A stretch of DNA of 64,000 bases, taken from the NCBI GenBank assembly GCA_963924565.1, contig OZ004608.1:12710001-12774000 (forward strand), read 5' to 3'. The notes under the pieces were generated by a model, which saw only the letters and a program-made list of their open reading frames with translations, searched no databases and was not told the DNA's origin. Source of the DNA: Ascidiella aspersa. Taxonomy: Eukaryota. This document shows positions 16,601 to 62,014 of the stretch, piece by piece (position 1 is the stretch's first letter; every line of letters begins with the position of its first letter). The translations under genes and the position numbers were made by a program.

Positions 16601-18438
16601 AAAACCTTTTAAACAATTTAGAGCAATCCGGACCGACGCCTACCAAACTTTACCAAGTTCGACTCCCGATCCTTACCAATACTGATTGCGCGGCGACGTT
16701 GCAAAATGCCACCATTCTTTCGTCACAAGTGTGCGCCGGTGACGTAACAAACGGAGGAATCGATACTTGCCGGGTAGAATTTATTTTTTAATAACTGAAA
16801 TGGCAGCGTGTCTTTTAGTGCAGACCAGGTAAGAGGTAATGCTTATAAAGCAAAGTGATAAAGATAAAGAAAAAAGATTTGTTAATATTAATCTCGCTTT
16901 ACAGTACTATAAATTTAGTGATACTTCATACGAGGATCAGTAACCATATCACAAATGTCCGTCGTCCTTGTACAAAAATATCCATGAATTTTAGTTGGCT
17001 ACCCTTGCTTTTTGACAACGAGTTGTTTATTGTCCTCTCGTAAAGTTGTTTTAAGCCGTACTTAGCGACAAAATGTAGGCAATCACAATTAAGCAACTAT
17101 AGCATTGAAATTTTAAAAGGTGTACTAAACCTTACAGATATCGCTACTAATTAACAAAGCTTCTGATTTCAAACAGCAAATGACTCAGGATGTCAGGATG
17201 ATGCTAATAAATTAAAAAAACGTATCAATTCACGAAGCATACCGAAGATAAGGAATCAATATGCTACTTCTAGGCTAGCTTCGAATTAGCAGTTAATCTG
17301 AACTAGGAAAGTAGACAGAATATTACAGAATATTTCTGTCCCGTCAACTGATGTGGATATTTTGATTGAAAGCTCATTAACCCCTAAAACGCCTACTGGG
17401 GAAATTTACCCCACGTTAAGAAAGGCAGATATAGACCATGGGGCGTAATATATCCCTTTTCTTTGATACATTTTTTAACGAAATTGCTTACAAAGGGCGA
17501 CTCCGGAGGACCACTCGCTGTTCTTGATGATGAAAGTTCTTGGACACAGGTTGGCATCACATCGTACGGTTACGGGTGCGCCGGTGTCAGAGCTCCCGGA
17601 ATCTACACAAGGGTTTCTTCCTATACAGGTGGGATCAACGGTAAGTGCAGACTTGGCGAACACAACACCTCGTTTTAGGGTGTTGACAGTTTTTCACAAA
17701 TCTTTGTTTTTACTAGCAGTGGTAAACGCCAGAACAAACTGTCCAATGACTAGAAAGTTTTAAACAGGTTAATACAAATAAGTTAAGAAATTCGTTTTTG
17801 CGCAGCGCAGCTTTTTAAAGTTGATAGCAGTGCTGTAAACAAGTCTTTTCAAGCTGACTAAAGTCCCAGTCAAGTCATTCGTAAAATAACTTAAGTCCAA
17901 GTCAAGTCAGTTGTAAAATTACTCTGGTCCTGGTCAAGTCTTTTTTAATAAATCACAAGTCAAGCCCTAGTCATAAAAAGTATACGTTAAACTGCTAAAA
18001 TTGGTAAACTAGCTCGATTACGGGCAATAAAAAAACTAAACTATAACAAAAAACGCAACATATAGCAAGGAAATTGCTTTATGTAGAAAAATTGGGATAT
18101 ATAGTGAAAACTTTTTATTTTAACCCAAGTCAGTTGTCCGAAAGACTTAAGTCAAGTCAAGTAATTTGCCCAAAAGACTTAAGTCAAGTCATTTGAAAAC
18201 AGTGACTTAAGTACACTTAAGTCAAGTCAATGACTTTAGTCATTATAACACTGGTTAATAGATAAACCAATGTGTATCAAGTAAACTGAAGTATGTGAAA
18301 TTGTGTTTCTCAGGAATAATGTCGGAAGCCACCACAACAACCTCAAGCAGTGCTCGGCCTTCCGCATCAGCGACACCCTCTACCAGGGAATGGTCGGCTT
18401 CTGGCTGGCGGTGCGCATCGGACGCATCTTTTTTTTAA
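13682..18438 (+). pseudogene. Degenerating CUB-(LDLa missing)-trypsin module with a frameshifted hydrophobic tail; either the 3' end of the polyprotease gene or a separate paralog
   Basis: CUB exons 13682-13797, 13943-14032, 14208-14340; protease exons 15206-15360, 15619-15720, 16145-16290, 16622-16773, 17496-17640; terminal exon 18314-18438. The triad motifs (AAHC, DIAL, GDSGGP) remain, but the CUB exon ends in phase 1 and the DNR-IVGG exon starts in phase 0 with no LDLa or linker exon between. Also WPWQ to WSWQ, terminal WI to GI, and the hydrophobic tail is out of frame. Confidence 0.7.
17828..18253. mobile_element. GACTT MITE family copy, reverse orientation
   Basis: cagtgctgtaa...ttataacactg; TSD gttgatag/gttaatag (7/8). 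Confidence 0.82.
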
Positions 18439-32325: not shown

Positions 32326-35300
32326 TTATAATATTTCCCTGCCCGAACCACCTTCCGTTAAATCATCGTCGTCGAAAAAGATATCTTTGAATCCTTTCGG
32401 TTTGATCATGTCTTTGAGTGCACGAACAAACACGTCATCCACGTTTTCGGTCGGTTCAACCTGGTCATGTATGTCCAGGTGAGGGTCGATGGCGTTTTTA
32501 TCGCTGGAGTGAGAGTTCTGCGACTGGTAAACGACGCTTTCATCACCCTGGCCATCTAAACAACACATCGATAGAGCAAGTTTAAACAAGGTAAAAGCAG
32601 CACAACCACCGTTATTTTATGAAACTTTATGAAGGTTTGAAACACAAAACACGTTTTTTTAGTCATTTCAATAAAAATATTAAAAACACTGTTGATGACA
32701 CGAGGTGATGCCGAAACGTCTGTAAACTGTAAAATGTCGACTGTATCGAATATTATGGCTTTAATATTTTTATTGAAATTTGTGAACGTGCACCATTACA
32801 AAAACGAACAAATAAGGCGAATAAAGCAAAATTAGTGAATTAACATTTTTTTTTAATTTTTAATGCCCGAGTTTGTATAAGTTCGAACAAATTTACCGTA
32901 GAGGGTGTGCGATCTCAGGTATGCAGCATCTTGCGACTTCGGTTTCGCTGCGTTTTCTTTTCTCAGATTTTCACCAGCAGAGAAATCGTAATTTCTCTTA
33001 CGATACACGTAATAGCTGTTTCCCAAATCGTTTTCGCCTGGAGGAAGAAAACATTTAATGTCGCACGCTGCTTATTTAGGATAAGTTAAGAAAATATTAA
33101 AAAAAAATTCCGAGGACCACATTTGTTATATCACTATGTAAAGTTTTCAGTCTGTTAAGTTAGTTGTAGTTATAAAATATTTTACCTGGTATCACCTCTA
33201 GGCTTGCTGAAGCGCTTGCAACACCGTACATGTTTTTCGCTATGCATTGATACGAGCCTGCGTGGACCGGTAAGACTCCCCCAATCTCGAGCCAGCTGGT
33301 TACCTGATACTTAAGGGGTCCACTGCGTATCTACAAACAATTTAAACATGTAAAACCTAGAAGATTAAACTCTCTGTCAATCAAATGCAACTTTTCTAAG
33401 AAATCACTTTAACAGCAAGATTTTTTGCTGCTCTAAACCCCGACAGACGTTTAAAGGTATTATTTAAATACCGGCACCTTCTCGCTTTGCATTTGAGTAG
33501 GATAAATCTCTTAGATCCTAATGTAAAATATATTACGTTAAATAAAATGTACGTCGTCGTTGCAAAGCAACTTTAGCATGGTTGATGAATAAAGCAAAAC
33601 TCCGATCAACTGTATATTCATCAGAGGTATTACATATTACAAAACAAAAGATACAAATGATTGTATAGAATGAATTTTCGTACCTATATGTAGTTTATGT
33701 ATATATATATATACAACATCCTCACCTGTATCGTTATGTCGTCGCTGATGCCCGGTTTAAAGACGCTTTCCCCGTTTACGAGCCACTCGAACCAAGCCAG
33801 TGGGTAGCCAGACACGGAGCAACTATACACGGCCGTGGTTCCCATTTCTGCTGTTTGATTCATGGGAGGGATCTCCACTGCTGGCGCTGCAGAGCAAAAA
33901 AATGACATAAGCTTAAGGTCACTGATGGTTACATTGCTTTCTTGAAACCTAACATTGCGCTTGAACCTAAATTCTTGCTTATTGTGATAGGTCGTTGTTT
34001 GGACCTATTCGCTGCCCAACATTAGCTTTAGCAATCGGATCCATAATATTTCCCTAAAATATCACATTTAACAGTATCAGTACAGTATAAGACCGAAGCA
34101 CGGTCATTTTCTGGCCTGAAATTTTGTCCACTATCTTTAAAGTGCCCTTTTGTAAGTAGTTGGTCGAAAACTCACGAAAAAAAAATTGGCCCAGGGTTGT
34201 TCGTAGGGTAAATGCACATTTTTTTATCTGCTGTGCATCGAAGTGTAACCCTGTGGCCTAATTGGTCATCGGCAGCTTCATTCGGGTAGGCCGCGAGTCT
34301 AACCCGTGTTTACCAATTTGTAGTGATGCAGGTCGGTCGCACGAAAAGTGATTTTCTTCTAAACCTCGATGTTTATCGATACATTACTGTGTCCTAACGA
34401 CAAAAAAGTGAAGGGCGTTGTTTGCTCTTATACCTGAAATTGCGTTATTTGTGGCTAAACAATGTTGTTTGTGGCCGAGTCCGAAAATTTAAACTATGCT
34501 CAGCGGTTTGCCGTGAAAAGGAAAATGCGCAATATTGTTTACCTCGTAGCAAAGTGTTCTCAACCTATGCACCCGATCCGTCAGAAATAAGTGCAGTTCT
34601 AAGTAAAAAGTTCTACGACAATTAGGGCAGCACCCTAACCCAAATAATGTGCGTTGATTTAGTAATTAGGCTACATGAACGCTTTAGGTCCCAATACCTC
34701 AATTTGTGACGTAACAATCTTTTCACCTTGGACGAGAAACTATCTTATGCCCATCGATTTTGGGCTTTTTCCCCAGCGTTAAAATAATTATTACGTTAAC
34801 GTAAATTATTTCAGTTAGGGTTCGGGTTAGCGTTTGGGTTAAGGTGGGTCAAGTGTTATTAATTCCATCTAACACTTTTTGTAATCTTTTGTGAATGTTC
34901 AACGAATATTTTCAATTTATCTACACCGGGAGTTTACCCCATGGGCCAAATTAGTGCATTGCCACGACCTCAAAGTCTAAAAGTCGGACTTTTCTGCGCT
35001 TGTATGCCCTAATTATCGTAGACCTTTTTGCTTAGAAATGAACTAATTTCTGACGGATCGGGTGACCGACCAAAATATGGCGAACTAAAATTGGGTCGCC
35101 GTTTGATCTGGTTGGGTCCCTGTATTCGAACTTGTTTATGCTAATGTATAATGCTATGTTCGCTTACAAGAAGTTCAGCGAAGAGAATTGGGTTATCAAA
35201 GCTTTGTTGTTATACTTAGGCTCCGCCGTCGGGGTTGAGAAGCACCATCGTGGAATAAAGGGCACACAAATGTAAAACTGAGTAGATTTTTTTCAAAATG

Positions 35301-38300
35301 TAATTTTTTAAACATTCCTCAGTACCCTTGTTATCTTAAATCTGAATATCTTATAAAAAATGTTTTAAAGGGGTGTGTAAACCTTCAGCGTGGGATTCGC
35401 CGCAGAATCTTCACTCACGCGTTTTAGCGATCGTGGAGGTTCCGCCGCGTTGGGAACGCGTCTCCGCTTTGACACGCGCCCCAAGCTCGGAATGTAAATA
35501 ATCCGCCGGCTAAACTGTGTAAACTGGGGCGTCTCACGCGTTTGCACGCACCCAAGGATGCCAGTCGACAGCTGTTCAGTACCTCGCCGCACGCCATGTG
35601 ACGAACGGGATTCAGATTTGCTCTAACCAAAATATCGCATCTGAGCGTATTAATCTAGCATCCTTGCTGCATAACCTGTAAGTGTAAAAGGTAAAGGAAT
35701 AATCAAAATCGCTGTTGGCAAATGCCGACGGAAAATAAACGGAAAAGCTTGTCAATAAAAAGATATTATCAATACAAGCCACGTGACAAAATCCGCCCGG
35801 TACATTATTTTCTGAATTGCAGCAACAGCCAAATTATTTCTTCTAAAATATTTTTGACAAATACATTTTTAGTTCAAAAATTTAGCCTATCGAACGACCA
35901 CCGTTAATTTCAGAAGTGAAAACTTATTTGTTGCGCTATATGCATCTAATATACCGAAGCATGTTTTTCTGTGATTTTTTATGTCATCGCATCTGACCGT
36001 AAGACCGTAACGGCTTCAACCGTGCCACAGATACACAAGGAAATATATAGCGTGTCTGGAATCACATACGGTTCGAGTCATACTGACCAACCAACGATAA
36101 GTGGCATGTGATAATGAGTCAGTTAGGACTAGCTCCAACACAAATATTAAACCTGTCCGTTAAGGTTGGTTCACACTATAGACGCGACTGGCGTTAACGT
36201 AAACGTTTTTTTAAAGTTAACGTAAACGTTTTTTAAAATTTGCTCTAACTGAAATATCGCACCTGATCGTATTAGACCGTAACGGCCACAGCCGTACCAC
36301 GGATACACAAGGAAATATAGCGCATCTGGAATGAGATGCATTATGCGCCGTATGATTAAAGTATACAGCGTCGCTAAAACACAAACATCACGTCTGTCCC
36401 CAAAAGCTTGAACAATACCACCGATACACAAGCCCCTCTGTATTCCATAACTTTTGGCCGCTAAGTTAAACGCCAATTATTTCGGCCGAAGGTCTTACTC
36501 CAAAGTTGTGCAATGTACGCTAGAAGGTGTTGGAATATCACGGGTCGGCAACTTTCCACTCCAGATGACACTGGCGCTTTTGCAAGTTTTCCTGCCAGAG
36601 ATGGTTAGCTGTAATAAACTGGGAGTCTCATGAATCTGAAATGACAAACCTTAGAAGTAAAATAAATTCGATTTCGGTACACCTGATGATAGGACAGTGT
36701 ATACACTTTTGGAGGACGAACCGAAATCATTCTCTGTTTGAATACAACCAGAGAACCCTTAAAAGTGCTTGTCCGACGTGGCTTCCTGTCAAATCCAGGT
36801 TTAGATAAGTCTTCCCGAGGATATTTATTTAACAAAGTACAAAAAGATCCTTCAAAGATACAAAAGTTAAAATGGTATATGCGCAGTAGGCGGAAGTGGC
36901 CAGTGACGCGTATGTTCTTTTGAGTACGGCGTGTTTCTTTCGAAGTTTTTGTTTCCGGCATGTTATGAAAATGCGATTAAGGCACGTTCCTCGATCGCTC
37001 GTATGCAAACATCGCAGTTTGCCGAGGCCGGTTGTAAAGCGGCGTTCGCTCTGTGAAGGTTCGTCGAAGTCAATATTGGTGCGCACCTGATGCCACAGCG
37101 CGCGCGTTCAAAGCAAAGGGTTTTGCGCCCTCGATCATGTAAACCGCCTTACGTTGTGTAATGTACCCAAGACAAACACTCGTCGGACCCAAACCACAAA
37201 ACACGAGGTCAAAACCCGGCGATTCACTTTTTGCACGAAAGCAATGTAAGCAGGTTGAAACCATTACAAATGAAAAAGCATTACACGTGGAAAGGATTAC
37301 AATGTAAGCATTACAAATCGTTTTTTGGCAAAGGTCGCGTGCGCCTTTACGGACAGTCGGACATGCACGAAATGAGTCACGATGGCTTGCAAGATTTTCT
37401 CACAATGCCTACCCAGATCGAATGACGGTATAAGTGCTCGACGAGCGAAATGAAGCGCCCGTGAGCGGCGGCAAACTTTTACCCGTTTATGATCAGATTA
37501 CGCCGCAACCCGTAACCGCCAGACCGTGGCCAGAGTCTGTCCGATGATCGACCGAGCGTAAAAGAAACATGGCGGCTTTGCCCTGAGCCGTTTTACCTGT
37601 TTGTCTTTTTATCGCCGCGCCGATTACGATCGGAACAGGGTAAATGTGGCGCGGGTCAAAGTTTGCGATCCAAAATTGGCCGCGCCCATGTGATAAGAGA
37701 TCGACATGCAGAAAGGCCGCTGGTTCTTGTACGAAAAATCTCTCAGATATGTTTAACGTAATGCTGGGAATCTTTGCCCACCAAACGAAATGGAAGACAA
37801 AAACACGAACACTTAAAGCGACTTTGGCGAAAGCGACCGGCGCAGGACAATTGGAAATAGGTCGTAAAAACTGCTTTAACAAATAAAATGTAACGTATAT
37901 GTTGCTAATGATGCATAATTCAAGTCTTTCAAAACACCTCCTCAGAAGCAAAAGGTTGTAGGCATTGTGTGGTGTAACTTTAGTAATATAATCAAAACAA
38001 AGGCCAAAAGCTCGGCTCTTCTATTTCCCACCGACTGAAAACGTTCACACGCAGGGTGATTTCTAGTATTAATTTAGCATCCGTATTGTATAACCTGTAT
38101 AGGAATAATTGAAAACGCTTTAGGGAAATGACGACGGAATTTAAACGGAAAAGCTTGTTATTGAAAAGATATTAACAAAACACGCCACGTGACAAAATCC
38201 GTCCGATAAGTTATCTTCTGAATTGCAGTAAAAGTCGAATTATTCCTTCTATAAAACAACTGTTACAGATATATTTTTGTAGTTCAACAGTTTAGCCTGA

Positions 38301-41300
38301 CGGACGACCAGTCGACCACCATTCATTTGAGAAATGAAAACTTTTTTGTTGCGCTGTACGAATCCAATACTGAAGTATGTACTTCTGGGATTTTTCCGGA
38401 AGTGTTCGAAGGTTTTTGAAATAAAACAGACAAACGTGAACACATACGTAAGCCTACAAAGCAACGATATCTTGAGCAGAATAATCTGCAATGCCATAGT
38501 ATTAAGACCAACAGCATAATATCCACGACAGAAGAAGATCTAAAATCGTCTAAACTAAAGATGTCCGATAATATCACATTTTTACTTCGAAAGGTAAATT
38601 TATCAAAAAACGTCACTAACAATGGGATGTAACTTAACTTCTTAAAGCTGAACAAATGTTATCCAATAACACAGGTAAAAATGAATTATCTTTAACTTTT
38701 TAATTCCATCTGTTTGCTTATTAACGACGTCCTTTGGTATCCGATCCGATCGCGATACTTTTTGTCAAAAATATCGGGTATCAGTATCGGAATAAAATGT
38801 GATTCATCGGGCATCCTTGTCCTAATAAGATCTAAACCTGTCGGAATAAGTCCTATACGTTCATTGGAATAAATAACGCCTGAAACTCTAGGGAGGAGGT
38901 ATCGGACGATCGGGGGCCATGGGTCCGGCATCGGCCGTTTTGGTGTCATCGTTTTGGCGTCCTAGTTTAAACGCCGCCGTTGTAGGATCGCAGTTTTGGC
39001 ACCGGATGTTTTGCCTCTATTTGAGATTAGTTTTGGGTAATGGTTGGGTTAGAAGTTGGTTTAGGGTTAAAATTATTGGGGGAGTTAGTAATGAATTAAG
39101 GGGTGGGTTTGTGGTTAGGTAAAAGGTTCTATAGACCATATTCTGGCCCTTTAGGGCTTATTCCGGCGTGTTTATGACTTATTCCTTTTTAGACGTTAGA
39201 CGTTAGTAGGACTATTACTATTAGTCCTGTATTGGTTTTATGAAAAGTGTATGTTTATATATTTTGTTTTTCCAGACAATCAACGAGCTAATTTGTGAAT
39301 GTTTCACCCTATAAAGAACAAACGCTATTATCGATAAACATAGTTCGGGTCACTCAACCGCTATAGGACATCTCACGAAACAAATCGGAAAAAGGTCCCA
39401 TCAAAGGTGGAAAATTGTAACAAACATCTATATACAAATAAAATAAATAAATCATTGATCATGTTTTCTGCTTTGGAATATAGTCACAAATTTATCAGGC
39501 GGTGTCAACAACGATACTGACTAAACAATACCTCTTTTAGAATCTTAAACTTGTAACCATAAATTCGAATATTTTAAACTTTATTATTCTTACAAGCGTA
39601 TCTAAAGCAAATCCCCTGCCAATTTCGTTGATATGACAAAAGTGGCCCATTGCAATTTAACATTGTATTTCGGGTTACATGTATTCAATTTACCGTTGCG
39701 CAGTAAACCGATACATCTACGATTTGTTGCAGGTGAAAGTGGTCTGTAGGTTTGTTTCGATTCGTTTCGGATAAAGGAAAATAAAAACGTTTCATCTGAC
39801 CTTTTACATGTTTCTAGATAACTAAGTAAACGTGCTGAAGTTCAGGGTAAAAATGTGAATGTAATGTTGAGCTGGCTTTCTCGGGTATGGATATGGAAAC
39901 ACCAATTTGCGGTAAGTTCATGTCCTCAGCTTAAAACAGATTTCCTGAATTTTACAGCGTGTAATAAAACGTAAAATATCTGCCTGAACGAAAAGCAGTT
40001 GGTTCTGCTCGCAAAAGAGTGTGTGAGAATGTTGTTGTGGAACAACCCATGGCAAGCAAATATTGCGCTTCTCTCAATGTAACACCGTAACCGAAGTGTT
40101 ACATGTAAGACAAATTAAGACGCGTAAATTAACCAAAACTATCCCGGCGACCAGGACAATTCACAAAGTTTCCCAAGTTGGTAATTTATTTTGACCGACG
40201 AAAGATTAAGCTTCGTTCGCAAATACGCGATTAGCAGCTATATTAAGAGTTCTGAAGGCCCTACCCGAAACTTAATTTTTTTGAAATCCACTTGACCAAA
40301 AACTAACAACTAATCCAGTAAAAAAAATGCCTCTTTTAACTTCTCAACGTAAAACACCTTTATTGTAAAATGATACCCGTCCAGACAGTCTAATTGAATT
40401 TGCGGTGTCAGTTTTAAGAGGTAAAGTGGTAATGATGCCTCATGAGGTAAATGCCAAATAAACATTTGTTGAACGAAACGCACCTTTAAATAAATGCTAA
40501 TAATATCGTTCAGTAATCAAACGGTATTTTCGTAAAAACCTTAAAGCGATGCATAATATCCACAGAAGACCAACTGAGGTGGTTTCACATCATAACCTAG
40601 ATCAGTGGTTCTCAACCTTTTTGTACCCGTGACCCCTTTTTGATGCTTTCAAATATTCGCGGACCCCTTACATTTTTCTGGTGATCACCGAAGTAAGTCT
40701 TAAAACGCGTGATTGTGGTTTTGAAAATGCTAGACCAGGGGTCCGCAACCCAAAATGTTACAACGACTGTGAATCAGGCGGGCGTAAAACGTGTTTAATT
40801 ACATTTAAGGCGGCAGTAAAGGCACAAAGCGCAAATAAATGCGTTTGTTTGGCTCAAAATTCGAATCCATACGTAGTCATTCATATTACCAATGAATAGT
40901 ATAATGAAACAACCTTAAGACCCCCCGATAACTTTGAATAGTTAATCTAGTTGTGTGTTTGTTAACCTTTGTAGGTCGTAAGAATTTCTGGGCGAGCGAA
41001 GCGAGCGCGATTTTTTTTTGTTATACAGGGCATTTCTTTAAAATTAAAATTTTTTGCAAGTTTTTATTTAGACAAAAAAGGTTAAAAAACATATGTCCAA
41101 TATTTTTGAATACGTTTTCCGTTTGTCCGCGACGCAATTCACGGCGCAATGGTAAAGAAGCGCTGATATAAAAAAAATTGATTTTTGCTCTTAGTTAAAA
41201 TCATAGACACCTTAAACAGAAGGACTGGTATCTTCTATGCTCGGTATATGGAACTTGGGTCCCAAGTTGGAACTTGGGTCCCACCATAATTTGTGTCAAA

Positions 41301-44300
41301 TACATGGTAGAACCTTCATTCTGGTGTCTCTTTGGGGGTTTTGAAGGGTGAGGAATTACTTTTTCATACTTTAACCTTCTACCAGGTCATATCAAGGTCA
41401 TTTAAAGGTCAAATCACATAAAAATAGCGCAAAATCACTCAAAATATTGCATATTTTCTCACTTAAACAACTGAAACACACAGTATTACCCTGTGACTGA
41501 ATTAAAATCTATACATGGACAGTTTAGCCTGGATAGTTCAACAGAAATATATCTTAGACGAACAACTTAGTTATTCTTGAAATAACATAATTACAAGTTA
41601 ATATTGCTACAATATATATTTAACATTTTTAGGTAAAAATTGCTAGAACAATGTTATTTCAAGGGACTCATCACAATGAAATTTGAAGAAATGAGTAATC
41701 AAACTACTTGTTGGCATTCTAAAGATACTCGTTCAGTTTTTAGTAGAGGGTTTTTCTTTTCTTCTCAAACAGCCGAGTTGTCTTTCTTTGTCACTGTTGT
41801 CAAGCACAAATTCTTTCAAAAGAATGTCTGATAAAGTAAGACATGAATTACAACATTGGAATATCGATACGAAGCATAGCATGGCTGAGATGAGCTCGGC
41901 AGCAATGCAAGTTGCACTTATCAAACGGTTTATAGGCTGAGTGTACGAAATGTACTGTTGAGAGTAAGAGGACTAGGGGTACAGTTAGTCCACCTCTATT
42001 TAAGTTTGCGAGAAACTCCGAATTAATCCGATGGTCGTCGTCATTTTCAGTTTCGATACGCAAGATATTAGCTCGATATTTGTGTTCCTAATATGCTTCT
42101 GCAGTTTGATTGGTAAGCTTCTGCGTCCGACATCGACCACCTGACCATACACATCGACCACCTGTCACAAGAGGCTATAATGTCACAAGTATCATTAAGT
42201 TTCTTGAAACTAGTGCAGTTCTTGGTCCATGATATTAACGACTCTCATCACGCATGTTAATACCGGAATATCGACCTTTCACATTCATCATGTGAAACCA
42301 ATCAGTGATAAGTTTGACAAAAATGATGGTGTTAATGCCAAGTTTATCCTTTAGAGTTGAAAGAGCAGCAACTGTCTTGTCATTGAAGATCTGGCATACA
42401 AAAGGAACGCTTTGTCTCTGCAAAGGTTTTGGGTACACAGCTGTGTATGTGATCTTGGTAAGACGGATGCTGTTTTTCCGGTCTTCATTGTACAGTGCTT
42501 CTATGTCCTTCCATCGTGCAATATATGTGTTTCCATCTTTTGTGAAGGAAAGTTCCTTAACATGCACCGTTATCAAGTTAATTCTTATATTTTTAAAAGA
42601 ATAAACGTAGTCAAAAACGAGGAAAGCATAAGAATTTATAGCGTCAATAAAGACTGTACCAGGGCCATGTAATTTACCATTACCTGCAACATTTGAATTG
42701 CATTTATCACCTACACAAGAAATTATACTACCACCAGCATTGTTTTCCGCTACTAGAGCTTCCAGTAGAATTTTCTTGAGTTGATCTGAATTAAGTTTTT
42801 TATCAGGGTCGTACCAAAACATCAAAAAAGGGGGTCCTAAATTTCAACTTAGGGAATTCCCCTATCTTCCATCTGACGTTCATGAATAATGACGTCATAA
42901 AACAGTGACAGGATGACGTCATAAAATGGTAGTTGCAAGACGTCATAAACCACTAATCAGAAACAGCCAAAGAACGACCAGCAAAAGCGAACCTTTAGAC
43001 GCAAAGCGAACACGTGCGTCGTCGACAATCCTGCCAGGCGCCAGCTGCGAAATCACAGTGTGCAATCGTTAACTTCAGGCGAAAAAATAAACCAAAACCG
43101 TGAAATATGTTTGATTAATTGTGGTAGAAACATACATAATTCGACTATCAGCAGCGTAGTTTCCTAAGTTCCATGAACGGAACTTACAAGCACGCGTTTC
43201 GCCACCTGCAAGGGGCAAGAGCCCCAACCCCCTTGGATATGCCCCTCGGGGCAATAGATAATAATGTATAATATTTTTAACCTTCATAATAAATACATAT
43301 AACACACTTACAAATATTACTAATAATCGCATTTTGAAATTCCAGGAATTCCAGGGGCAAGTGCCCCCCCCCCCTGCCTCTCTGCCTCCCAATTCACAAT
43401 ATATTTGTGTTAGATCACAATGGAAGTGTTACGTCACACTCAACGCGATTTACAACATATTACAATGTGATTTTATCACTTACCAAGATTGTGATTAAGC
43501 ATGCTTCCCAGCGTTTAAAACGGTATATTTAGACATTTTTGCGGCCCCCTGAAAACCTTTTGCGGACCCCCGGTTGAGAACCACTGACCTAGATGCTTCA
43601 GAGAGTGGCCCTGGAAGCATCTGTCACAGTCGAGGTCGTATTTTGGGGAATCGACCAGTTTAAGCGCACACAACCATCACTTTTCACAAAACTTGCTTCT
43701 CATGACTCTGGATATGTCGCTAATTAAATAACCGACGCGCTTCTTGCACTTCTACAGCATTGGCGATTACGGTTGCTGCTACGCTGCCTTTACGCTCATT
43801 CTACATGTCACGAATTACAGCTCGTCCATTTATTGGGTGGTCGACCGGCAAAACGACCGGACTATGGCCGGTGTGGAATGCGTCGTATGGATGGCTGGGT
43901 CTGTCTTAGTGCATTTCGCAGTCTTTGCTTGTTATCGTTTGCGGCATTTCGTCGCGCAAAAAATACGGCGCGAATTTAAAGCGGGGCTGAAAAGGACTGA
44001 AGACAGTCTAATGACATTCGTGAATCTAAACGCTTATTTGCCATAATCTAAGACTGGAAAATTTTAGTTGATTTCGTCGACCGCTCTGGTATTCGATTCA
44101 CGAACCTGGGTATGAAAATATGAACACTCTGATATCAATATGAAGTTGTTTGTACTATAACGTTTACAACAAGTAATGGTTTTATAGGTGTTTATCGATG
44201 GCTTCGCTCTGAACCTGTGTAGCTTAGTTGGTAGAGCGACTGTTCCGGTACGGATAAAATCGTGATCACCCCACCACAGGCTAGTTGTTTTTGTACAATA

Positions 44301-47300
44301 GCCTCTTGTTTGAATTAAAATGGGTTTAATAATTCAGTCAGCCCTTTGAAGGATCCCGGCTTACTACTATATGTGTTACACAAGGTGCCTTCGGAAAGGA
44401 TTACCGAAATCAGCCTAATCAGGATTTTCGTGCAAGCAAGGCCAGGCTATAGAATCACAAATTATATACATTATGTGTATGAATATTTCGATTGCCGATA
44501 AGTGTTTATTTGTTTTACCATGCCGTCGAGTGTTGTTTTTACATAGTGTTCCTTAACTTTGTTAAGTCGCCATGTTTCATTACATTAAGACTTTCTTTTC
44601 TTTCTTCTTTTTTCTTTTTTTTAAAGCGATGTGTGCAACTAATAAAATGCAAAACAACAGCAACCTGAGGTCTCCAACTTTCCAGCAGTCGCTCCTTTGC
44701 TTAGCGAAAGTTATCCAATGCAGCATCGGCAGCTCTCTGCAGTTCAGCGTTTGCGCAGCGCCCACACATATGACTTCGGGGGGGTTTCCCGCTCTCTACT
44801 GGGCGACATGTGTTTAAGCTGGAGAGCTACAGGCGTTGACCGATGGCTGGGCACGTGACAGTTCTTAAGCAGGTCATCTCTGCAAGCTTAACGCACCGCC
44901 GGGCGCCTGCGCACAAACCTAAAGCCTTCGTAGATGACGAGAGATAGCGCGAGAGGCGAACGTCGAGGCCCATAAAGCAACGCACGCAATCGCGAAGTAC
45001 GGAATGCGGTAGAGGAAAATTCCGTAGATTTTGCAGACTGCGAACGATGCGACTGACATGTGACGAAAATCATCCGAAATGGTCCAGCGCTGATTGATTT
45101 TGAATTGATAATCACCTCATTTATATAGTCCAGTAATGATTGACCCGCTTCTATTTTATGGGAAAAGTCAAATTCAGTGTGCGATCTAACTTTTGAGTTA
45201 AGTACAGATGTCACCGTTAGGTTGTTGTACACCAATAAACCATGGCAAACAACAACTATACTGCGGCGACGTCGTGTTAATGCCCCCTGCCCGTGAGAAA
45301 TAAGAAACGCCTTGGAAACAAAAGAGTCGCCTATATGTAAAAACCTATTTTTTTAAGTTTATAACCGAAATGCTGTTTTAATCTACAAAACAAGCACAAT
45401 ATTTTCCTACTTTTCAATGTTTGTTCATGGAAATAAAATATTTATAAGTCCAATTCAAAATGCAGTTCAAAATGCACCTGCGTTCGCATTCCGAAACAGG
45501 CGCCAAACCAGCAAAAGAGTGTATATAACAATTTCCAAGGCTTGCCATATAACCACGTTTACAAAACAAATATACGGCGGGAAGTGGTGCTGTTCAGCAG
45601 TTTTCTTATCTGAAGTTCAATCTAAAACTATGAGGTTTTTCTGGAATAATTATTATCGTACGCATGATTCTCCTATTTAATTTCGTGTATAATTTTAACA
45701 ATCTTCGGCGTAACTGATATATCACTTTTTGCCAGTTGGACAACAGTGCCATACCGAATGTGATAAACGCATACACTAAGATATCAAATACTTTGTCGGT
45801 TCAATATAATATCCACCCCAATAGACTGATAAAAATATGACGACAAACCTCGACATTGAGTCAATATAAGTAATTGCCATTTCTGAAAAAAACTTATTGT
45901 CACCTTACTTCGTTATACCAATATGGCAATTATAGGATGTGGTCGGGAAACAAAACCATATACTTAACGAGATTCGCCCACATCGGGTGTAATTACGCCC
46001 CGAAAAGATCCGATTTTGTTGCTGCGATGTCACCTTGCGGTAACACGTCGGATAAAATAAGTTAATTATAAGAGAATGGAGGACTAACCAACTAGACAAG
46101 GTCCGTCGTGCTGCTTCTGGAGTCCCCGTTTTCGTCCGCTTGCTCTCCTGAATTGGCACGGATTCGAGTAAGTTCGGTCGTCGCTTCCGCATATCACAGT
46201 GTTGTCTGCGCACGCGCAGTACGAGTCGGACTCCCCCGACCCGACTTCGTTAGGGGGGACCGGCACGCACTCGAGACCTCGTCCGCACTCTCCGAACCTG
46301 TACGAAAAAGGTATAATTTGTGTTTCCTGCGGGAGTTCAAGAAAAAAAGTTCCAAGGCGGACCCCAAAACGTCATAAGGGCAAAATGTGAGTTGGTTGGA
46401 TACAAATATTATCTCGTGAAGTGTCCCATACGTGAAAACCGGCGGGTATAAACTTACCGAACGACACTTTTCCGCGGGCGAAAAACAGAAGCAATTTTTT
46501 TGTCAAACATTTTTTTTTAACTGGAGAAACGGAGAAGAAATACCACACACGTTTTTTTGCGAAACTGGTGATTTTGAAATATAGGTAAGGTAAGCATACA
46601 AGACTGAATGCACATTATCCATAATAAAACTGATAAGTTTATCGTATTTGCCTCCAGCAGTTTATTAGGGACAATTGTCAAGTTATGTTATTAACGAAAA
46701 AAGTATGCCGTTTTTTTTAATTTCCTTATACCTATAGTATGCCCCAAGCTAAAAAAAGTTTTCGAACCACTGATATTAGGGGACTATAAGGGAACTGAGG
46801 TATGTACTTTCACACAGTTGTATACTGTTTGCCATATACCCAATGTATTTTGCCTTAACCTTCACTCTTCCGAATAGTCTCTTTGTGTTAAGTCAATTTC
46901 CCTTATTATAATACGACCTGACCGTGGGCACAATACTTGACCATCCCGCTATTGTGCACCTATAGAGTCAGGAGCGCGCAAAATACTCGCGTTTAAACGC
47001 AAAACACAGCATATAGCCCGCCAAAGACCCTTGCTTGCATGGTATACCTGAAGGCCTGCTCGGGCATGTCGCACGGCGTGTCCTCCAGGTTGCCGCACAC
47101 GTAGCAGCAGTCGCAGGCGTCCCTTATCAGTCCGCTGGGGCAGTTGGCGGGCGGCTCCTCGCATTGCTCCGGTTCGCAGTCGCCGCACGACGTTGTCCAG
47201 TCGAAGAGCAGCGGATGCCTGCGCGCGAGATTCGTCGATTATTACAAAACGCGGGATTGGGCAGCCATAGCAGGACGCGAAAACACAGGTGATAATGACA

Positions 47301-53725: not shown

Positions 53726-56700
53726 ATGGCTAATTGTTGTTCGTCTGAATTTAAGGCGAAATACTTTCTGTACAAAGACTGCGCGCCGTCTAAGTTTTAC
53801 ACCACGCAGGTAAGGTTGTATTCTAACATGCCTTGAAATCGTTTTTCTATTAAATTAAAAAAAAAAACTCTCTAACTTAGACCGATGACTTATCTCTGTA
53901 ACAACAACAGGTGTGTCGTGCAGCGCTGTAGATTATTGGTGAAGGTGTTTTGTAAATTAATAAACTTTGTGAAGAAATGTGTTTGTTAAAAGTGAAAACA
54001 GTATATCGCTCACCGAAAAACATAAAGTATTGTACCCAGTGTGGGTGCTTTTTACATATGTCCAAAATATAGAATCGATGATCTATTTTTTTGTTTTGTG
54101 ATGTTACTAGTCATGACGTAATTTTTCGACATTTTTTTGTTAAAACATTTTCCGAAGCCCTTTTATTTTTTTCACAACCACTATGCCAGACCGTGCGGGG
54201 CTAACACATTGCTATGTTGACATAATATATTTTCTAGTTGAATTCATCTCCTAAAACGCTTCGCTACCTCTGTAACAATGCACCGTTCCCAAACCAGTTG
54301 TAACTATCTAAATAAATGTGCGTGTAAGTTCATATTAAATACAGAAATTGAGCTGGTGAATGTTTCTTATACAAGTAGGATGCACTTTTGCATACTTCGC
54401 AGTCAAAAGTGCAGAAATGCTAAACCTTATGTGCTTGAGGCCTGCGTAATCCATAAGTATATCATTCAAGTAAAGTTTCTAAAATATATTATACCTTGTA
54501 AAAAAAGAGCAACGTTGTTTTACGACAGGGGTGTGCAATCTTATAGTAACAGGGGGTTGCACCGCGGCCAATATTTGTATGCGGATTGAACCACAAGCAA
54601 ATCACATTTTTATCGTCGACCGAATACACCAGAGTGCGGCTTCGACAGCATATCAAATGTTCCACTATTTTGTGATTCTGTCTGCAGATCATATCTTGGG
54701 AAACTAAATTTGTGGTCATTACACTTTAATAATAAATTAAACATAATTTAGTCTGTATTCTTGTCGTGGGCCTGAAAATAAAACATGTCGCCGGTCACAC
54801 ATTTTTGCTCTGCAGGCCACAGGTTGCACATCGCTGCTTTAGACAAACAAACTTTGTTTCACGCTACAACGACTAAGACATGGGTGAATGTGGAAAAGTT
54901 CTCTTACCTAAACGATGAAAAATTTTCAGAAATACCGCCACAAAGTTACATCTTAACAGGGTGTTTGAAACAAGCTTATCGAAAACCTGGTGTTATCGTT
55001 CAATGTCGAACGCAAATATGCAACCGTATTCTTCGTTTAAATTTTTTTAATTGAAAAGGGAAAAATAACGGCATATAAGCCTTTAAAAATTGTTTATTGC
55101 AAGCCTTTAAATATTGTTTTTTTGAAACGATTAGGGTGTTGGCTTAGCTTAAAACTAAATATTACTATAATCCAATTTTTCCCCCAATTTCATGCCCTGT
55201 TGGACACTAAACGCTATGTCAGGGGTTCTTAAATTGGGGCACATGTACCCCTTGGGGGTACGTAGACTACTTTTAAGGGGTAAAGGGCCTAATTAAAAGT
55301 GTAGTGGATAAATCAAAACAAAATTAATTATACGAGCGTTTAAAATTTTAAATAAAAACAACATTTTTGTTTTTTTTCTCTTAAACGCATTTAGACTTTA
55401 ACATTTTTCGGATCGAACATAAGTATTTTTGTTTATTGACATTACTCTATGACAGGGCCGGATTAAGGTTTTCATGGACCTGGGGCTGTATGGTAGTCAG
55501 AGGCCTATTGTTCTTTTTTCATTTTGTTTATTGTTTCATTCATAGGCGTAGTCAGGGGGGCGCAGGGGTCATGTCCCCCCCAAAATTAATAAATATTTTA
55601 TTCCTAATAATTTGTTTTGTAGCATTTATGAGCAGTGCCACAACAGTCGATCACAGGCATGTCACACCTTCAATTGTCATGCACTGTTACGTCATAAACG
55701 ATCTAGTTATTATTACTTTTGCTATACATTAATGCAGTTTTACTACTTTTAGTCAGTTTTTGCTCTTTGAAGTTTGAATGGTTTGTGAGCATTGCGAACA
55801 CTAAGTTAGCTGCTGCTCGAAACGGTTTGCTAGCATTGTTATTTGTGTTCGTTACGGCAGTTAATACACGGGTAAAAGCTAAACAAAAAAGTTCAAACTT
55901 TTTGGCGCCCCTAAAAAATTTTTTCGGCTGGCCACTACCACAATTACCATAAAATAACATTGCTTTATTCACTTATCAAACTGATCAAATTAACGTGTTT
56001 TTCCAGCTGTTTGTAACGTCATCGCTGTATATTTTTTCTCCAAAATCTCGTTTTTTATACAAAAGTAGAGCTAAGGAATGCAACCTACTTAGACAAACGC
56101 ATTTGATTCTTTAGTCTTTTAAGGACTGAAAATAGGCGTTTGCCTAAACAATTAGTCATCATCAGACACAGATACATTCTTAAAACAACAGATAGCCCAT
56201 TTTCATTAATAAATCTAAACTAGTGTTTCTTAAAGTTTTTTTCATATTTCTCCCCTTAAAGACTCAAACACTGTTAATTCCTCCAAAAAAAATCGCAGAA
56301 AGGAATATTGCCAAAATTCCATAGTATATGGATATGATGTGCAAGGTGCGTTTTTATGATTTATCTCAGAGATAACAGTGAACATTACAAAAGTCGAGTA
56401 CAATTCAAAAACAATTGCAAAAATGCAAAGAAGAATTTTACGGAACGGAATTTACATAACGTATTTACAAAGTGTTATTCATGGTTAATGTGAACCACGA
56501 GCTTCTTGTTTAAATAAAAACAATGAAAATTGAAGAGAAAAGCATCTCAGTTTTGCCCGAAGATCTCTGCGTTTGAAAATGTCAAGTGTTCCTTTTTCTT
56601 GGTCAAAATATTTGTAATGGCACTAAAACCTCATTTAAATAAATATGTAGTCGAAAATGAAAGAAGTGTTTGCTTTACAACCGTTAATTTGGCATACTTA

Positions 56701-59700
56701 GCACAAAATTGTGGATTCAACCATATTAGCTGTTTTTTAAACGAATGGATTCGTAAAAGTCGCTGTCCAGCATTTGCTTTGGTATTTTGCAGAATTTAAA
56801 ATATATACTGGACCTACATTGAACTATTTATTTAGCACTACTAAGACTAAGTCTACAAAAAATTCAACTAAAAGTTTGCTAAAACAAACAAACAGTGTGA
56901 AACAGACATCTGGTGCTAGTTAACTTTACTTACTATGATGAAACAAAAGAGATTGTAAACCAAACAGACTATATTATGACGTAGTTTATCACAGTTAATG
57001 CAGCATAACATTGTCTTTCATAGTTTTCAAGTCTTATAGTAAGTGGACGTTCCCATTTCAAGTTGTGCAGTTATAGTTATATGTGTTAAATATCAAATAA
57101 TGAAAAGGTGATCCTTTTTCACCCACTTTTCCTCCCCAATTCCTCACTGAAATAAATTTCCTCCCCAAAATTTCAAATTCCCCACAAAGCGAGCCAAGTG
57201 GCTCCCTTTGAGAACCACTGATCTAAACGTTTTAGATATTTTGCTACTTTTGACATGGAAAGGGTGGTATTTTAGCGCTGCAAAAAATGAATCATCCCTT
57301 CAGGCATTGATTTTTCCAGTTCATCTGGGTAATACTATAGCAAGGTTTTAGCACCTTCTCTAATGCAGTGTTTCTTAACCTTTTTTACTTGGGGGCGCAC
57401 CTAGAGACGTATGCAAAACGTGGCGGCGCACCTTACGAGTGAAGCGAGCGCGAAATTTTTGAGGTGTACCGATATTTCTCTCAAATTGCCTGCATTTTTT
57501 ATTATATGGGTTTTACAGTTGCATATCTTTAAAGGGACTTAACGCATTTGGGACTAAAAACGCTATGTTGTCCATTAAAGTCTTATTCCGATTAATTTTG
57601 GACTTATTTCGACATGCTTTCTCCCTTCGCTCGCGGCGCACCTAGCAGCCTTCCATGGCGCACCAGTGCGCCGCGGCGCACCGGTTGAGAAACGCTGCTC
57701 TAATGGTTGAGACGTGGTATCTAAAATCAGTCCAACTTTAATATTACCTCACATTCTTACATGTTTTTTGTAATTTATTTGAACGTATAGGCTACTAATC
57801 ATTGCTATACCTTTTGCTCACACAGCATCGCAATTATTTTTCGAAGCATTCACGAAATTTAGATATTGTGACAATCTGGCTAAGCAAATGTACTGTCTTT
57901 AAACAAATTAATGTAGATCGTTGTGATTTTTTTTAGCATATAGCCTAGTCTTCTCATAGTAGATTCATTTTGTGTAATAACAAACACGCACTGACGTCAA
58001 AAGCTAGTCGTCTTATAAAAGCCTCAAAATAAGTATGATGGATATTTCTTTAAACCAGGGGTCGACAACCTAAGGTCCGCGGGCCAGATCTTGCCCGACC
58101 ATGAAAATCATCCGGTCCGCGACCTGATTTTACAAGCTGGACACAAAGTCATCCCCAGTTTAACTAACTATGTTTAAAATACTTGAAAGCCACACGTTTT
58201 ATAAACCTGTTTTATTACGGCCCGCCGAGAACTTACTGAGTTTGCTGCCTGGCACCAGTGGCGATAACACTAGATTTTAGCTTTACAGTTATTTTACAAA
58301 GATATCGTCGGTTGGTCCTATTAAATTGTTAGTGATGGGCCTATTTTTTGTGGTGGGCCTGGGGCTGCAGCCCCCTCAGACCCGCATCAATTCGCCCCTG
58401 CTCTATGACGTCAGCTTTCAAATTTAATGCTGACCTTGTCTATGCGCATAAAAACAATTTTAAGTGTCAGCGTTAAAAAGTTAAGAACCACTGCTCTACG
58501 TTATCTTGTAAGACTTTCTAAAGCAGTGGTTCCCAACCTGGGGTCCACGAAACCCTTGGGGGTCCGTGAGAAAGCATTTGGGGGTCAGGGGTGGGCCACA
58601 CGGACCCACGGTTGGTAACCACACCACAAGTATATAAAGTGAGCAACATCACCAACCACTCATGGTAATTATACAAGCTGTGTTCACTTTTAGTATTCGG
58701 ATTTTACACATCTCGCAAATTATTTAAGGTATCATTTAAACTAGTAATATTTACGCTATTGCAATAAAATTACAAATACGAAAACATCAATATTCTTTAC
58801 AGTACTTGTAAGAAAACCTATAATCCGCTATGTGCCTTTTTATGACAAAAACGCGGGTGGTGAAAATATTTAATGAGCTTTATTTTAGGAGCAGTATTTC
58901 TGTAGAATCGAAGTGCACTACTTTGGCTTGACGCAAAACAGCGACACATAAATGTTTTCAAACCATCAGGCTGCAATGATCAACCGATAAAACTCGCACA
59001 TACGTAACTTGTTTTTCTGCTGCAGTACAACTTTTTAACATGGAAATTTAGGCTTATACATTTATAAGATGATTTTGCTATCTTAGGCGAAATTTTATCT
59101 CCTAATGAAAAAGGTAAAATCGAGCACGTCAGAATGCCATACGCTTCGAATGCCATAAGAGTGCAGAAATGCCGCAGAATCAAAAAGCTGATAAAATCTA
59201 AACGAAACGCTGCTTCAGTTTTTGTTTACATATGTTATATTTAGGGCTGCGGAGTCGGAGTCTGACTCGGGACTAGGACTCGTCGGAGCTTTTGGTAGAA
59301 TGTCTTATGGTGGAATATTTTTCAATCACGTATTGTGGGTGAATGAGTTGTATTTCCTATAATTAATTTGCTGTATATCCACCTTATTTTAGTTACGTGA
59401 TGGGTTAAAGAGAGGCTAAAGGGTCAAAGACTCCAGGACATAAAGTTCGACTTTTTTTCTGCTGGAGTCGGACTATAGGATGATATTGACCGACTCCGCA
59501 GTTTTATGAGTTTCAAAATAAATCAGTGACCGGCAAAATGTGGGGCGCGGCCCAAATGTCGGCCATCTAGCCATTTTTACTGAGTCGCGAGCTGCTTGTT
59601 ATTATTTCAGTTTATCACGTAGTTGTGGGCCGCACGATGGCCATACACCTATTGTAATGCAATTAAAACGATTTTATCTGTTTATTTTAGCATATTATTA

Positions 59701-62014
59701 CATCTTAAGGCCGCCAAGCCATTCCCTTTAAGTATACGGTTAGCCAAGTCTAACTAGTTTAATGCAATATTTTTCGCATTTCGAGCAAACTTTAACCCAT
59801 TTTAAACTCATCTGTATTCAACATAAAGGATGCTGCATACTATGGCATGTCGCGCCGCGTGACTCATAAAAGTTCCTAAGGCTATTTTTTTTTATTAATA
59901 AAAGTGGCATTATGTCCAGCAATATTCGAGTCACTTTGAGTGCCTCTTGTGTCACGTAACATTTCAATCGACATTTCTCAAATTAAAACAAATAAACGGA
60001 ATCGATTAAAATGGTTTTCAGATTTGCACACAAGTTTGCTCTAGAACAAATATTGTTTTGTGTTTTATGACGTCACATCATAACATATATTTTTTTTGGC
60101 CGTTCAAAGAGCATTTTGGGCCGTCATAAAAAGATTGACCACCGATATTAATAATAATTCATATACCTGGTATTATCTTGCCTTTGTGCAATTTTTATCG
60201 GTATCTGTCTTCAGCAACATATCTTCTGCAATAATGAATTGTCTAAAATGCGTAATACCACTTGTAGGCTACCTCCATTGCAATTTATATTTGTTAAGTT
60301 TGGACAAACATACAAATATCTCTCATTGCATTTTTTTCCGAGTAAAGGCACAATTCGGACAATATTAAGCGGTTGTCTTCGAGATAGCTCGCCTTGATTC
60401 AACTGGACTGCAAGGAAATGATTTACCGTGAGATGTAGATGCCTAGCGGTTACAGCTAAAAACCTATTGATTTTCTAAAATCGGTATACTTATAGAGCAT
60501 GAACAACATACCGCACTGCTCAACATTAAACTTTTCGTGGAGCAAAAGTCAATGTTTTGTTTACAGATATGCGCTTGAATACATTCATGTCTAAAAACTT
60601 TGTTTTTTTATTCATATAGTGGTCAAATTGCGTATGGCATCTTCTACCAGTCCGTATTTTTCTCTGCTGCTATTGGCTCGGGTGGTGGCTAGCTTCAGCC
60701 ATTACTGGTGGCACGGAATACTGGACCTTTCTCACGAATTGGTCGGCTACGACGACGACCTTTTACTTCAGCTGGTCGCTTGGTGTTTGCATTTATGGCA
60801 TAGCGACTCGAGATCAGTGGCAAACGACCGGAAACTTCAAGAAATCGACAGTGAATACTGTCACCGACAGCGCTGAAAATGGAAAACCGGTTACGTCTGT
60901 TGCAGGTTAGTCCGTACAACGCTCTACGTCATTAAAACTAAACAAACCAAAATATTTATAAGAACATTTATTTTAAGTGTAAAAGGGTTGGATTTTTATT
61001 AAACAAAGTCCTTTTCTTATAACCTATACTTGCACGTCAGTCCGTCACAAAGTTCGCACAAGGCGCGAAAAAATGCGTTTCTTTCGTTCAATTCAGAAAA
61101 CCTTTAATTTAGAACAAGGCGTCAATCATTTAGTTTAGAGCACAGCAACATTTTTCGAATGGCATTTATTAAGGTGATTTTACAATTTATAAGTGTTATA
61201 AGGGCCAATGAGTCATAATCGTATGGCTTCAGCAATGAAAAGTCAACATGTTCTTTTATGCAAATTATTTTAATATCCTATGTTGACCAGTTTTTAAATG
61301 GCCCTAAATTTCGCGTCATTAACAAACCACGATACGCATGTGGGTATTTCATTCTATACTATTTGTATGCACATACCAACCTGAGGACTCCCGATGAAAG
61401 CCCCTAAACCACAGTTGGCAATCGCTATGGCTTAGTTGGAAAAGCCCTGGCTTAGTTGGAGCAGTATTCCACGATAGGGACTTACTATAAATACGGTAAT
61501 TATTTTCTTTTCGTATTTAGGAGAAGGAGAGCTGAGGTGGTTTCACATCATCAATTGGATTTTCCAGGCTGTCGCTCTTGATGTTGCCATTACAGTCGTC
61601 GTCCTGTTCTGGGCACTTTTTACGCCGATTATTAATCCGATAAGCATTCACACTCACGGTATAATCCTTGTTCTTTTGCTCTTTGACTTGTTTATTATTG
61701 CTTTTCCCACCCGCCTCTTGCACGTTTACCACGTGGCACTGTATGCACTTGTATACACCGTGTTTCTGCTTATCCTACACGGTGCCCAATATAACTCAGC
61801 AGTTTATTCTTTTGTTAATTGGTCAACTAATCCCGGTATAGCAGCCGGAATTGGTGTGGGTCTCGTATTCGTTGGCTCTGTTATTGTGCATTCCATTGTT
61901 TTTGGTCTCTACCAACTGAGATTGTTGATTGCAAAGAAAACTGTGTTCAAAAACTCCGAAGCAACTGGCGTTACTTTGGCTATGGAATCAGACAACCCTG
62001 CCTTCACACAATAA
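53726..62014 (+). CDS. rost: Protein rolling stone-like multipass membrane protein (about 287 aa, 3 coding exons)
   Basis: Exons 53726-53809 (MANCCSSEFKAKYFLYKDCAPSKFYTTQ), 60620-60905 (WSNC..YWTFLTNWS..) and 61521-62014 (LRWFHIINW..VVVLFWAL..IHTHG..D..P.RLLHVY..Y..F..Y..W..P). Phases 0 and 1 fit; 864 nt. Motifs are typical of Rost-family proteins. Confidence 0.85.
56221..57220. mobile_element. 1-kb non-autonomous hAT element
   Basis: Ends tagtgtttcttaaag / ctttgagaaccactg; perfect TSD atctaaac. Confidence 0.85.
57366..57697. mobile_element. hAT MITE (related fragments at about 8165-8355, 14795-14945 and 40989-41167)
   Basis: TIRs cagtgtttcttaacc / ggttgagaaacgctg; perfect TSD ctctaatg; shared gaagcgagcgcga core. 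Confidence 0.88.
59242..59506. mobile_element. Degenerate MITE with GGAGTC repeats
   Basis: tagggctgcggagtcgg ... ccgactccgcag inverted ends. Confidence 0.55.

What the first reader, a model, noticed from the sequence alone, without database searches (positions are those of the whole stretch)
40566..44046. Hidden antisense rost pseudogene exon in the KAZALD1 intron; its nonsense codon lies inside the transposon TSD
Seen: removing the 40603-43586 hAT element rejoins a paralog of the rost last exon, with an acceptor at the same phase-1 position. The Trp codon of the intact gene (IIN-W-IF) is TAG here, and this TAG is present in both TSD copies (acc TAG at; 40598-40600 and 43590-43592). A second stop (43729-43731) and frameshifts follow. 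Established: Buster-type hATs prefer nnnTAnnn targets. Inference: the TGG to TAG mutation came first and created the preferred target, so the gene was already dead before the insertion. It also implies the rost cluster once interleaved with KAZALD1. I could not locate the upstream exons.
Basis: partly seen in the sequence, partly recalled or inferred. Interest (0 to 1): 0.72.

Follow-up and report, generated by a model that had tools for sequence, protein, structure and literature searches.

The report
Dead rost exon split by transposon
A lone, broken last exon of a rolling stone (rost) gene copy lies backwards in an intron of an IGFBP-Kazal-Ig gene and is split by a hAT-type mini-transposon whose duplicated landing site carries a stop codon on both sides, so the stop very likely came before the insertion; this is a tidy but ordinary case of gene decay.

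Summary
Removing 40603-43586 and one ACCTAGAT copy rejoins a rost last-exon paralog (E 1e-22). It has TAG in both target-site copies, a second stop and one net frameshift. The column is Trp in 116 of 128 non-gap homologs. All 26 perfect duplications of this hAT family have TA at positions 4-5, so stop-before-insertion is well supported. Hitting this codon is only about an 11% event within the exon, and nothing shows TAG was the first lesion. Corrections: the 3-kb element is a composite of an approximately 1-kb non-autonomous Buster-type hAT and a nested approximately 2.2-kb P-like element. The acceptor is weak and one codon shifted. One nested paralog is supported, not an interleaved cluster. 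Upstream exons were not found. Read data gave no empty-site allele, but suggest the exon is missing from some haplotypes, with one breakpoint near a 12-bp direct repeat that brackets most of it. Earlier scan notes held no matching case. Verdict: ordinary pseudogene relic, low interest.

The parts
40564..40565 (+). Putative phase-1 splice acceptor AG of the dead exon; weak, one codon downstream of the intact gene's acceptor
40566..40602 (+). 5' piece of the rost pseudo-exon (DQLRWFHIIT-stop-M); 20 of 20 bases identical to the intact exon at its core
40595..40602 (.). Left target-site copy ACCTAGAT, with in-frame TAG at 40598-40600 in the conserved Trp column
40603..41201 (.). Left arm of a non-autonomous Buster-type hAT element (related copies 1053-1054 bp)
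41202..43372 (-). Nested P-like element: left terminal repeat present, transposase fragment (PF21788, 24.1 bits, just under the 24.8 cut-off) at 42238-42843, right terminal repeat lost together with about 150 bp of the host hAT; right boundary approximate
43382..43586 (.). Right arm of the hAT element, ending in the terminal inverted repeat
43587..43594 (.). Right target-site copy ACCTAGAT, TAG at 43590-43592
43595..44046 (+). 3' piece of the rost pseudo-exon: net frameshift near 43655, TAA at 43729-43731, then 104 open codons to TAA at 44044-44046; single copy in G000
40383..40394 (.). Left copy of a 12-bp direct repeat bracketing the acceptor and most of the exon
44001..44012 (.). Right copy of the 12-bp direct repeat; near where a second haplotype of run X1 appears to rejoin (inferred, about 44010)
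33887..46088 (-). 12.2-kb phase-1 intron between the Kazal and first Ig exon of the IGFBP-Kazal-Ig (KAZALD1/IGFBP7-like) host gene; inferred from GT-AG and phase, not from RNA
53726..62014 (+). Intact three-exon rost gene (287 aa), nearest paralog of the dead exon and first gene of a four-gene tandem cluster continuing past the window

Best explanation
This is the last exon of a rost paralog, antisense in an intron of an IGFBP-Kazal-Ig gene, carrying an in-frame TAG that likely arose from TGG and was very likely already present when a Buster-type hAT mini-element inserted on it and duplicated it. Shown: the exon homology, both TAG copies, the second stop, the frameshift, the TA-core target rule of the family and the composite element. 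Inferred: the paralog arose by an old tandem duplication with the intact neighbour, evolved fast while still open, died fairly recently (about 0.04 substitutions per site, wide range), received the hAT (about 0.03 per lineage), then a P-like element landed inside the hAT and a deletion removed one P-like end; the upstream exons were lost by deletion, and further deletions are probably removing the relic from some haplotypes. The relic most likely does nothing.
For: E 1e-22 rejoined alignment; profile score 123.8 vs 14-21 in 8 shuffles. Codon-position identity to the intact exon 0.60/0.68/0.35 with only 2 stops and 1 net frameshift over 130 aligned codons, so most divergence happened under coding constraint. 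Highest identity is to the neighbouring intact gene (42%), above 8 other paralogs and 151 public homologs; sister on a quick tree with SH-aLRT 90. TA core in 26 of 26 perfect duplications (two are one duplicated insertion); site weight 57 with TAG against about 1 with TGG. Mismatch rate between target copies 1.6% per site, so two independent changes are at most 2.6e-4. Distances to related copies: hAT arms 0.03-0.085, P-like 0.03-0.065. RNA run X7 showed zero depth on the unique exon bins, in 6% of one run.
Against: No upstream exon was found, so a once-complete nested gene is not demonstrated. The acceptor is weak. The tree was the quick version and the sister grouping is unstarred, on a long branch of 1.4. 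The Trp column is not invariant among own paralogs (4 of 9 differ). A 12-bp direct repeat brackets most of the exon (1 of 500 shuffles) and contig data suggest the exon is missing from other haplotypes, which also fits an insertion. The dating rests on an indel rate taken from transposon copies that may be too high; stops alone allow 0.04-0.4.
Confidence: 0.72

Rival explanations
1. The exon never belonged to a gene at this place: about 0.63 kb of intron tail plus exon was copied from a since-lost rost paralog into the intron with a 12-bp target duplication, decayed, and then received the hAT. It would still be a presence/absence polymorphism. The stop-before-hAT order would still hold.
For: 12-bp direct repeat at 40383-40394 and 44001-44012 (1 of 500 mononucleotide shuffles reach 12). 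In X1 the exon lies on one contig at depth 32.1 with no second contig over 43616-43933, and contig ends imply the other haplotype rejoins near 44010; X2 has zero depth over 43616-43933. No upstream exons; few lesions despite deep divergence.
Against: No donor: one DNA match in G000 and no extra depth over the exon in X1, X2 or X6. The 11 codons beyond the repeat weakly resemble rost tails (101 of 3676 null peptides score as high). The inferred rejoin point is about 9 bp off what a clean empty site predicts. Contig holes prove nothing by the tool's own caveat. The nearest relative is the neighbouring gene, as tandem duplication predicts.
Confidence: 0.15
2. The hAT inserted into a live TGG codon and killed the gene; TAG arose afterwards in both copies by double mutation or conversion.
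For: Estimated ages of death and insertion overlap.
Against: 0 of 26 perfect family duplications lack the TA core; a double change is at most 2.6e-4; conversion between 8-bp tracts 3 kb apart is not a known efficient process (own knowledge).
Confidence: 0.02
3. The stop came first but from a codon other than TGG (for example a Tyr, Gln, Leu or Ser codon), possibly with the TA already present, so the nonsense change did not create the target.
For: 4 of 9 own paralogs have a non-Trp residue here; the dead lineage evolved fast.
Against: Trp in 116 of 128 non-gap homologs and Tyr in none; the nearest paralog has TGG, one transition from TAG.
Confidence: 0.08
4. The relic works as an antisense RNA or regulatory element for the host gene.
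For: Only its position, antisense in an intron.
Against: No promoter or upstream exon found; zero RNA depth on unique exon bins in the one RNA run laid (weak); apparently absent from some haplotypes.
Confidence: 0.03

Closest known systems
Buster-family hAT MITEs such as Drosophila Mar (PMC3517528, passages read)
   Same: Non-coding, short terminal inverted repeats beginning CAG, 8-bp duplication with nnnTAnnn consensus, many copies.
   Different: Host element about 1 kb, and this copy carries a nested P-like element; no autonomous partner identified.
P-element/THAP9-like transposons (Pfam PF21788 TNP-like_GBD; general features from own knowledge)
   Same: 8-bp duplications in 4 of 4 full copies examined (3 perfect, 1 with one mismatch), long terminal repeats starting CAT, transposase fragment.
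   Different: Internally deleted, broken frames, right end lost in this copy; domain score just below the curated cut-off.
Rolling stone (Rost) membrane proteins, Pfam PF21534; Drosophila rost (PMC2138187, abstract and outline seen)
   Same: Homologous C-terminal half; hydrophobic protein; at least 9 apparently intact last exons in this genome, all on contig C2.
   Different: This copy is a single disabled exon; the function of the family in this animal is untested.
Duplicated (non-processed) pseudogenes of tandem gene families and nested intronic genes (own knowledge)
   Same: Splice acceptor retained, beside its parent cluster, stops, frameshift and transposon insertions, opposite strand to the host.
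   Different: Only the last exon remains, and the target duplication happens to preserve a nonsense codon, fixing the order of two lesions.

Membership tests
Buster-type hAT non-autonomous element | 8-bp target-site duplication | tested here: met
   ACCTAGAT on both sides; 35 further pairs with at most one mismatch
Buster-type hAT non-autonomous element | nnnTAnnn target consensus | tested here: met
   26 of 26 perfect pairs, selected without requiring TA; two are one duplicated insertion; consensus as stated in PMC3517528
Buster-type hAT non-autonomous element | Short terminal inverted repeats, multiple dispersed copies | tested here: met
   15-bp perfect repeats; 40 of 40 scored candidates match for each end
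Buster-type hAT non-autonomous element | Cognate transposase falls in the Buster clade | tested here: inconclusive
   No hAT transposase in the element; 0 of the 30 best PF05699 loci (of 150 matches) aligned to its ends, with only 1.5 kb flanks; no transposase tree built
P-like transposon (nested part) | 8-bp duplication and terminal repeats | tested here: met
   4 of 4 full copies elsewhere; in this copy only the left end survives
P-like transposon (nested part) | P/THAP9-type transposase | tested here: inconclusive
   PF21788 E 5e-5, 24.1 bits vs cut-off 24.8; E 0.036 in another copy
Rost family (PF21534) | Significant homology to Rost | tested here: met
   E 1e-22 to the intact exon; 74.5 bits to a profile of 52 full-length homologs; genome search E 5e-14. 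The 104-codon piece alone had no Pfam hit
Duplicated pseudogene | Disabling lesions in a frame that was formerly under coding constraint | tested here: met
   2 stops, 1 net frameshift, position identities 0.60/0.68/0.35
Duplicated pseudogene | Remnant of a complete gene in place (upstream exons) | tested here: inconclusive
   None found; the profile recovers 9 of 9 intact exon 2 copies but only 10 of 20 heavily decayed controls beat the null
KAZALD1 ortholog (host gene) | IGFBP + Kazal + Ig domain order | tested here: met
   PF00219, PF00050 above cut-off; Ig_3/I-set below cut-off on a half-domain exon
KAZALD1 ortholog (host gene) | Groups with KAZALD1 rather than IGFBP7 or IGFBPL1 | not tested
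   No tree built; IGFBP exon is single-copy in G000

The most novel reading that the evidence does not exclude
The orphan exon is a still-segregating, 12-bp-duplication-flanked DNA copy captured from a rost gene now lost from the species, an exon-capture event caught in a population, in which a later nonsense change built the landing site for a Buster element and the target duplication froze the order of events.
Probability: 0.12. Interest if true: 0.45.

Novelty: new member of a known kind. Interest (0 to 1): 0.22.

Why it matters
Little on its own. It is a clean teaching case of using a target-site duplication as a time stamp: the duplicated 8 bases record the allele as it was at insertion, so the stop is older than the transposon. 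Because about half of possible nonsense changes create a TA (24 of 46 in the intact exon), a genome-wide count could test whether Buster elements are drawn to fresh stop codons in dying genes, but one case at an 11% chance level does not show that. If the exon proved to be a polymorphic insertion it would be an example of exon capture in an animal population.

Tried and rejected
Empty-site allele: four runs laid on 39800-44560. No 40602-to-43595 joint among the 15 joints shown (229 not shown) and no difference at the TAG among the 40 rows shown (503 not shown); inconclusive. Intact ortholog of the dead copy: none at E <= 0.01 among 15 candidates in the longer-protein search (weak), and none of 151 homologs is closer than the neighbouring gene; no relative genomes are held for G000. 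Upstream exons: tblastn, profile HMMs and a frameshift-aware scan (best 19.3 in 33890-40565 against 24.1 on the opposite strand) found nothing; exon 1 is too short to detect reliably; DNA upstream of the window was not scanned for exons 1-2. A repeat search of 33900-40565 was swamped by one MITE family and did not map the rest. Autonomous hAT partner not found in 30 loci. The careful tree did not finish; the quick tree used 55 rows (45 of 151 homologs, 9 paralogs, the pseudo-exon). 'One 3-kb hAT' rejected. Literature: four searches, listings only apart from three papers; the listing showed no title describing a nonsense codon preserved in a target duplication, which does not show that none is in print. 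A recalled doubt about the Drosophila rost phenotype was not confirmed and is not used. No supplements were read. Earlier scan notes: none near this place and none matching all words.
Full report
Setting. The window is G000:C2:12710001-12774000 of a 308.6-Mb, 75-contig genome with no relatives held. A minus-strand gene has IGFBP (46996-47238, PF00219 above cut-off), Kazal (46089-46371, PF00050) and Ig exons; donor and acceptor phases fit a 12.2-kb intron at 33887-46088. That intron is inferred from sequence, not RNA. An intact rost gene lies on the plus strand at 53726-62014, three exons, 287 aa, followed by three more last exons within 28 kb; 10 last-exon matches in all were found, all on C2, one of them the dead exon.

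Observation. ACCTAGAT flanks a 2984-bp element on both sides, with 15-bp perfect terminal inverted repeats. Removing it gives DQLRWFHIIT-stop-MLQRVALEASVTVEVVFWG against ELRWFHIINWIFQAVALDVAITVVVLFWA in the intact gene; combined E 1e-22. A frameshift-aware alignment to a 9-paralog profile scores 123.8 against 14-21 in 8 shuffles and finds TAG (40598-40600), one net frameshift (about 43655) and TAA (43729-43731). The DNA alignment allows up to three small indels around the frameshift. The exon is single-copy at DNA level (1 match). The acceptor is phase 1 but a codon downstream of the intact one and lacks a pyrimidine tract.

The exon was once coding. Identity to the intact neighbour by codon position is 0.60, 0.68, 0.35 over 130 codons. 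The neighbour is the best match (42%), ahead of 8 other paralogs (23-31%) and 151 public homologs (best 39%). A quick tree of 55 rows makes them sisters at SH-aLRT 90, unstarred, with branches 0.43 and 1.4. A simulation of neutral decay puts two stops plus one frameshift best near 0.04 substitutions per site; stops alone allow 0.04-0.4. So most divergence predates death, and the long branch suggests relaxed constraint before it (inference).

The element is composite. Its ends match a family with 1053-1054-bp members that lack the middle. The middle, 41202 to about 43372, is a separate dispersed repeat with a PF21788 fragment just under cut-off; 4 of 4 full copies have long terminal repeats and 8-bp duplications. 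Here its right end and about 150 bp of the host are gone. Distances to related copies are 0.03-0.085 for the hAT arms and 0.03-0.065 (mean 0.046) for the insert, in line with the nesting order.

Order of stop and insertion. In 102 loci plus the window I found 35 other repeat pairs with target copies differing by at most one base, without asking for TA; 26 were perfect and all 26 have TA at positions 4-5 (two of them are one segmentally duplicated insertion). An earlier stricter scan listed 3 of 29 pairs with two or more mismatches, which the census excludes. This matches the Buster consensus given in PMC3517528 (passages). The site scores 57 with TAG and about 1 with TGG, a value limited by pseudocounts. 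Target copies differ at 1.6% of sites, so two independent changes are at most 2.6e-4. The stop therefore almost surely predates the insertion. The column is Trp in 116 of 128 non-gap homologs (23 of 151 gapped) and TGG in 5 of 9 own paralogs including the nearest, so TGG to TAG is likely but not shown. A stop ten codons into the last exon removes about 150 of some 287 residues, so that allele was null (inference).

How surprising. Modestly. The site is the third strongest of 24 TA sites and holds 11% of the exon's target weight; 24 of 46 possible stop-gain changes in the intact exon create a new TA. Insertions also survive best in genes already dead (own knowledge). The ages of death and insertion overlap, so TAG could be an early lesion, but nothing orders it against the second stop, the frameshift or the loss of upstream exons.

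Upstream exons. An exon-2 profile recovers 9 of 9 intact copies, 2 of them held out, and nothing above 5.4 bits in the window upstream of the intact gene. A frameshift-aware scan peaks at 19.3 in 33890-40565 against 24.1 on the opposite strand; 10 of 20 heavily decayed controls beat that level. Absence is likely, not proven. 'Interleaved cluster' is more than the data show; one nested paralog is the plain reading.

Other haplotypes. Four runs were laid on 39800-44560. X1 holds 43565-44039 as one identical contig at depth 32.1, neighbours run at 48-49, and no second contig covers 43616-43933. X2 has zero depth there. X6 covers it at 3.7-6.0. RNA run X7 has none on the unique exon bins (6% of one run). 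X1 may be the assembled individual and is not independent. From contig ends I infer that X1's other haplotype rejoins near 44010, beside a 12-bp direct repeat (40383-40394, 44001-44012; 1 of 500 shuffles; noticed after looking near the breakpoints). This fits deletion of the relic in some haplotypes or insertion of an exon fragment. Against insertion: no donor, a weakly rost-like tail beyond the repeat (101 of 3676), and kinship with the neighbour. The tool warns that contig holes prove nothing.

Comparison and verdict. The parts are all of known kinds: a Buster-type MITE, a P-like element, a duplicated pseudogene fragment of the Rost family (Drosophila rost is described as a putative transmembrane protein needed for myoblast fusion; PMC2138187, abstract and outline). 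Four paper searches were read as listings; no supplements were seen. Earlier scan notes held no matching case. The finding is real and neatly reasoned but ordinary: interest 0.22.

Noticed in passing
window 40383-40394 and 44001-44012: 12-bp direct repeat bracketing the acceptor and most of the dead exon, near an inferred haplotype breakpoint at about 44010.
   Followed up: partly
window 41202-43372: P-like element nested in the hAT; family with long terminal repeats starting CATAGAC, 8-bp duplications and many dispersed copies at 85-95% identity.
   Followed up: partly
window 47200-47420, minus strand: The 5' end of the IGFBP-Kazal-Ig gene is unresolved: no in-frame ATG before the IGFBP exon, a signal-peptide-like stretch in another frame, and a Buster-type terminal repeat just upstream. 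It may have an unseen upstream exon or be damaged.
   Followed up: no
G000:C2 12.77-12.80 Mb, 14.84-14.87 Mb, 15.34 Mb, 5.67 Mb, 34.76 Mb: At least nine apparently intact, deeply diverged rost paralogs, all on one contig, four in tandem.
   Followed up: partly
G000:C2 35.4-35.8 Mb (L014, L015, L050): hAT copies share one target site and flanks, so one insertion was multiplied by segmental duplication; one copy is reduced to 201 bp.
   Followed up: no
window 34570-35064: High-copy MITE of about 500 bp with 60-bp inverted repeats.
   Followed up: no
window 35682-35848 and 38088-38254: 167-bp direct repeats (81%) around a 2.2-kb stretch richer in G+C than its surroundings; unidentified element in the same intron.
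   Followed up: no
window 2600-17700: Trypsin-like serine protease exons on the plus strand with Thr-rich repeat stretches at about 6300 and 9550.
   Followed up: no
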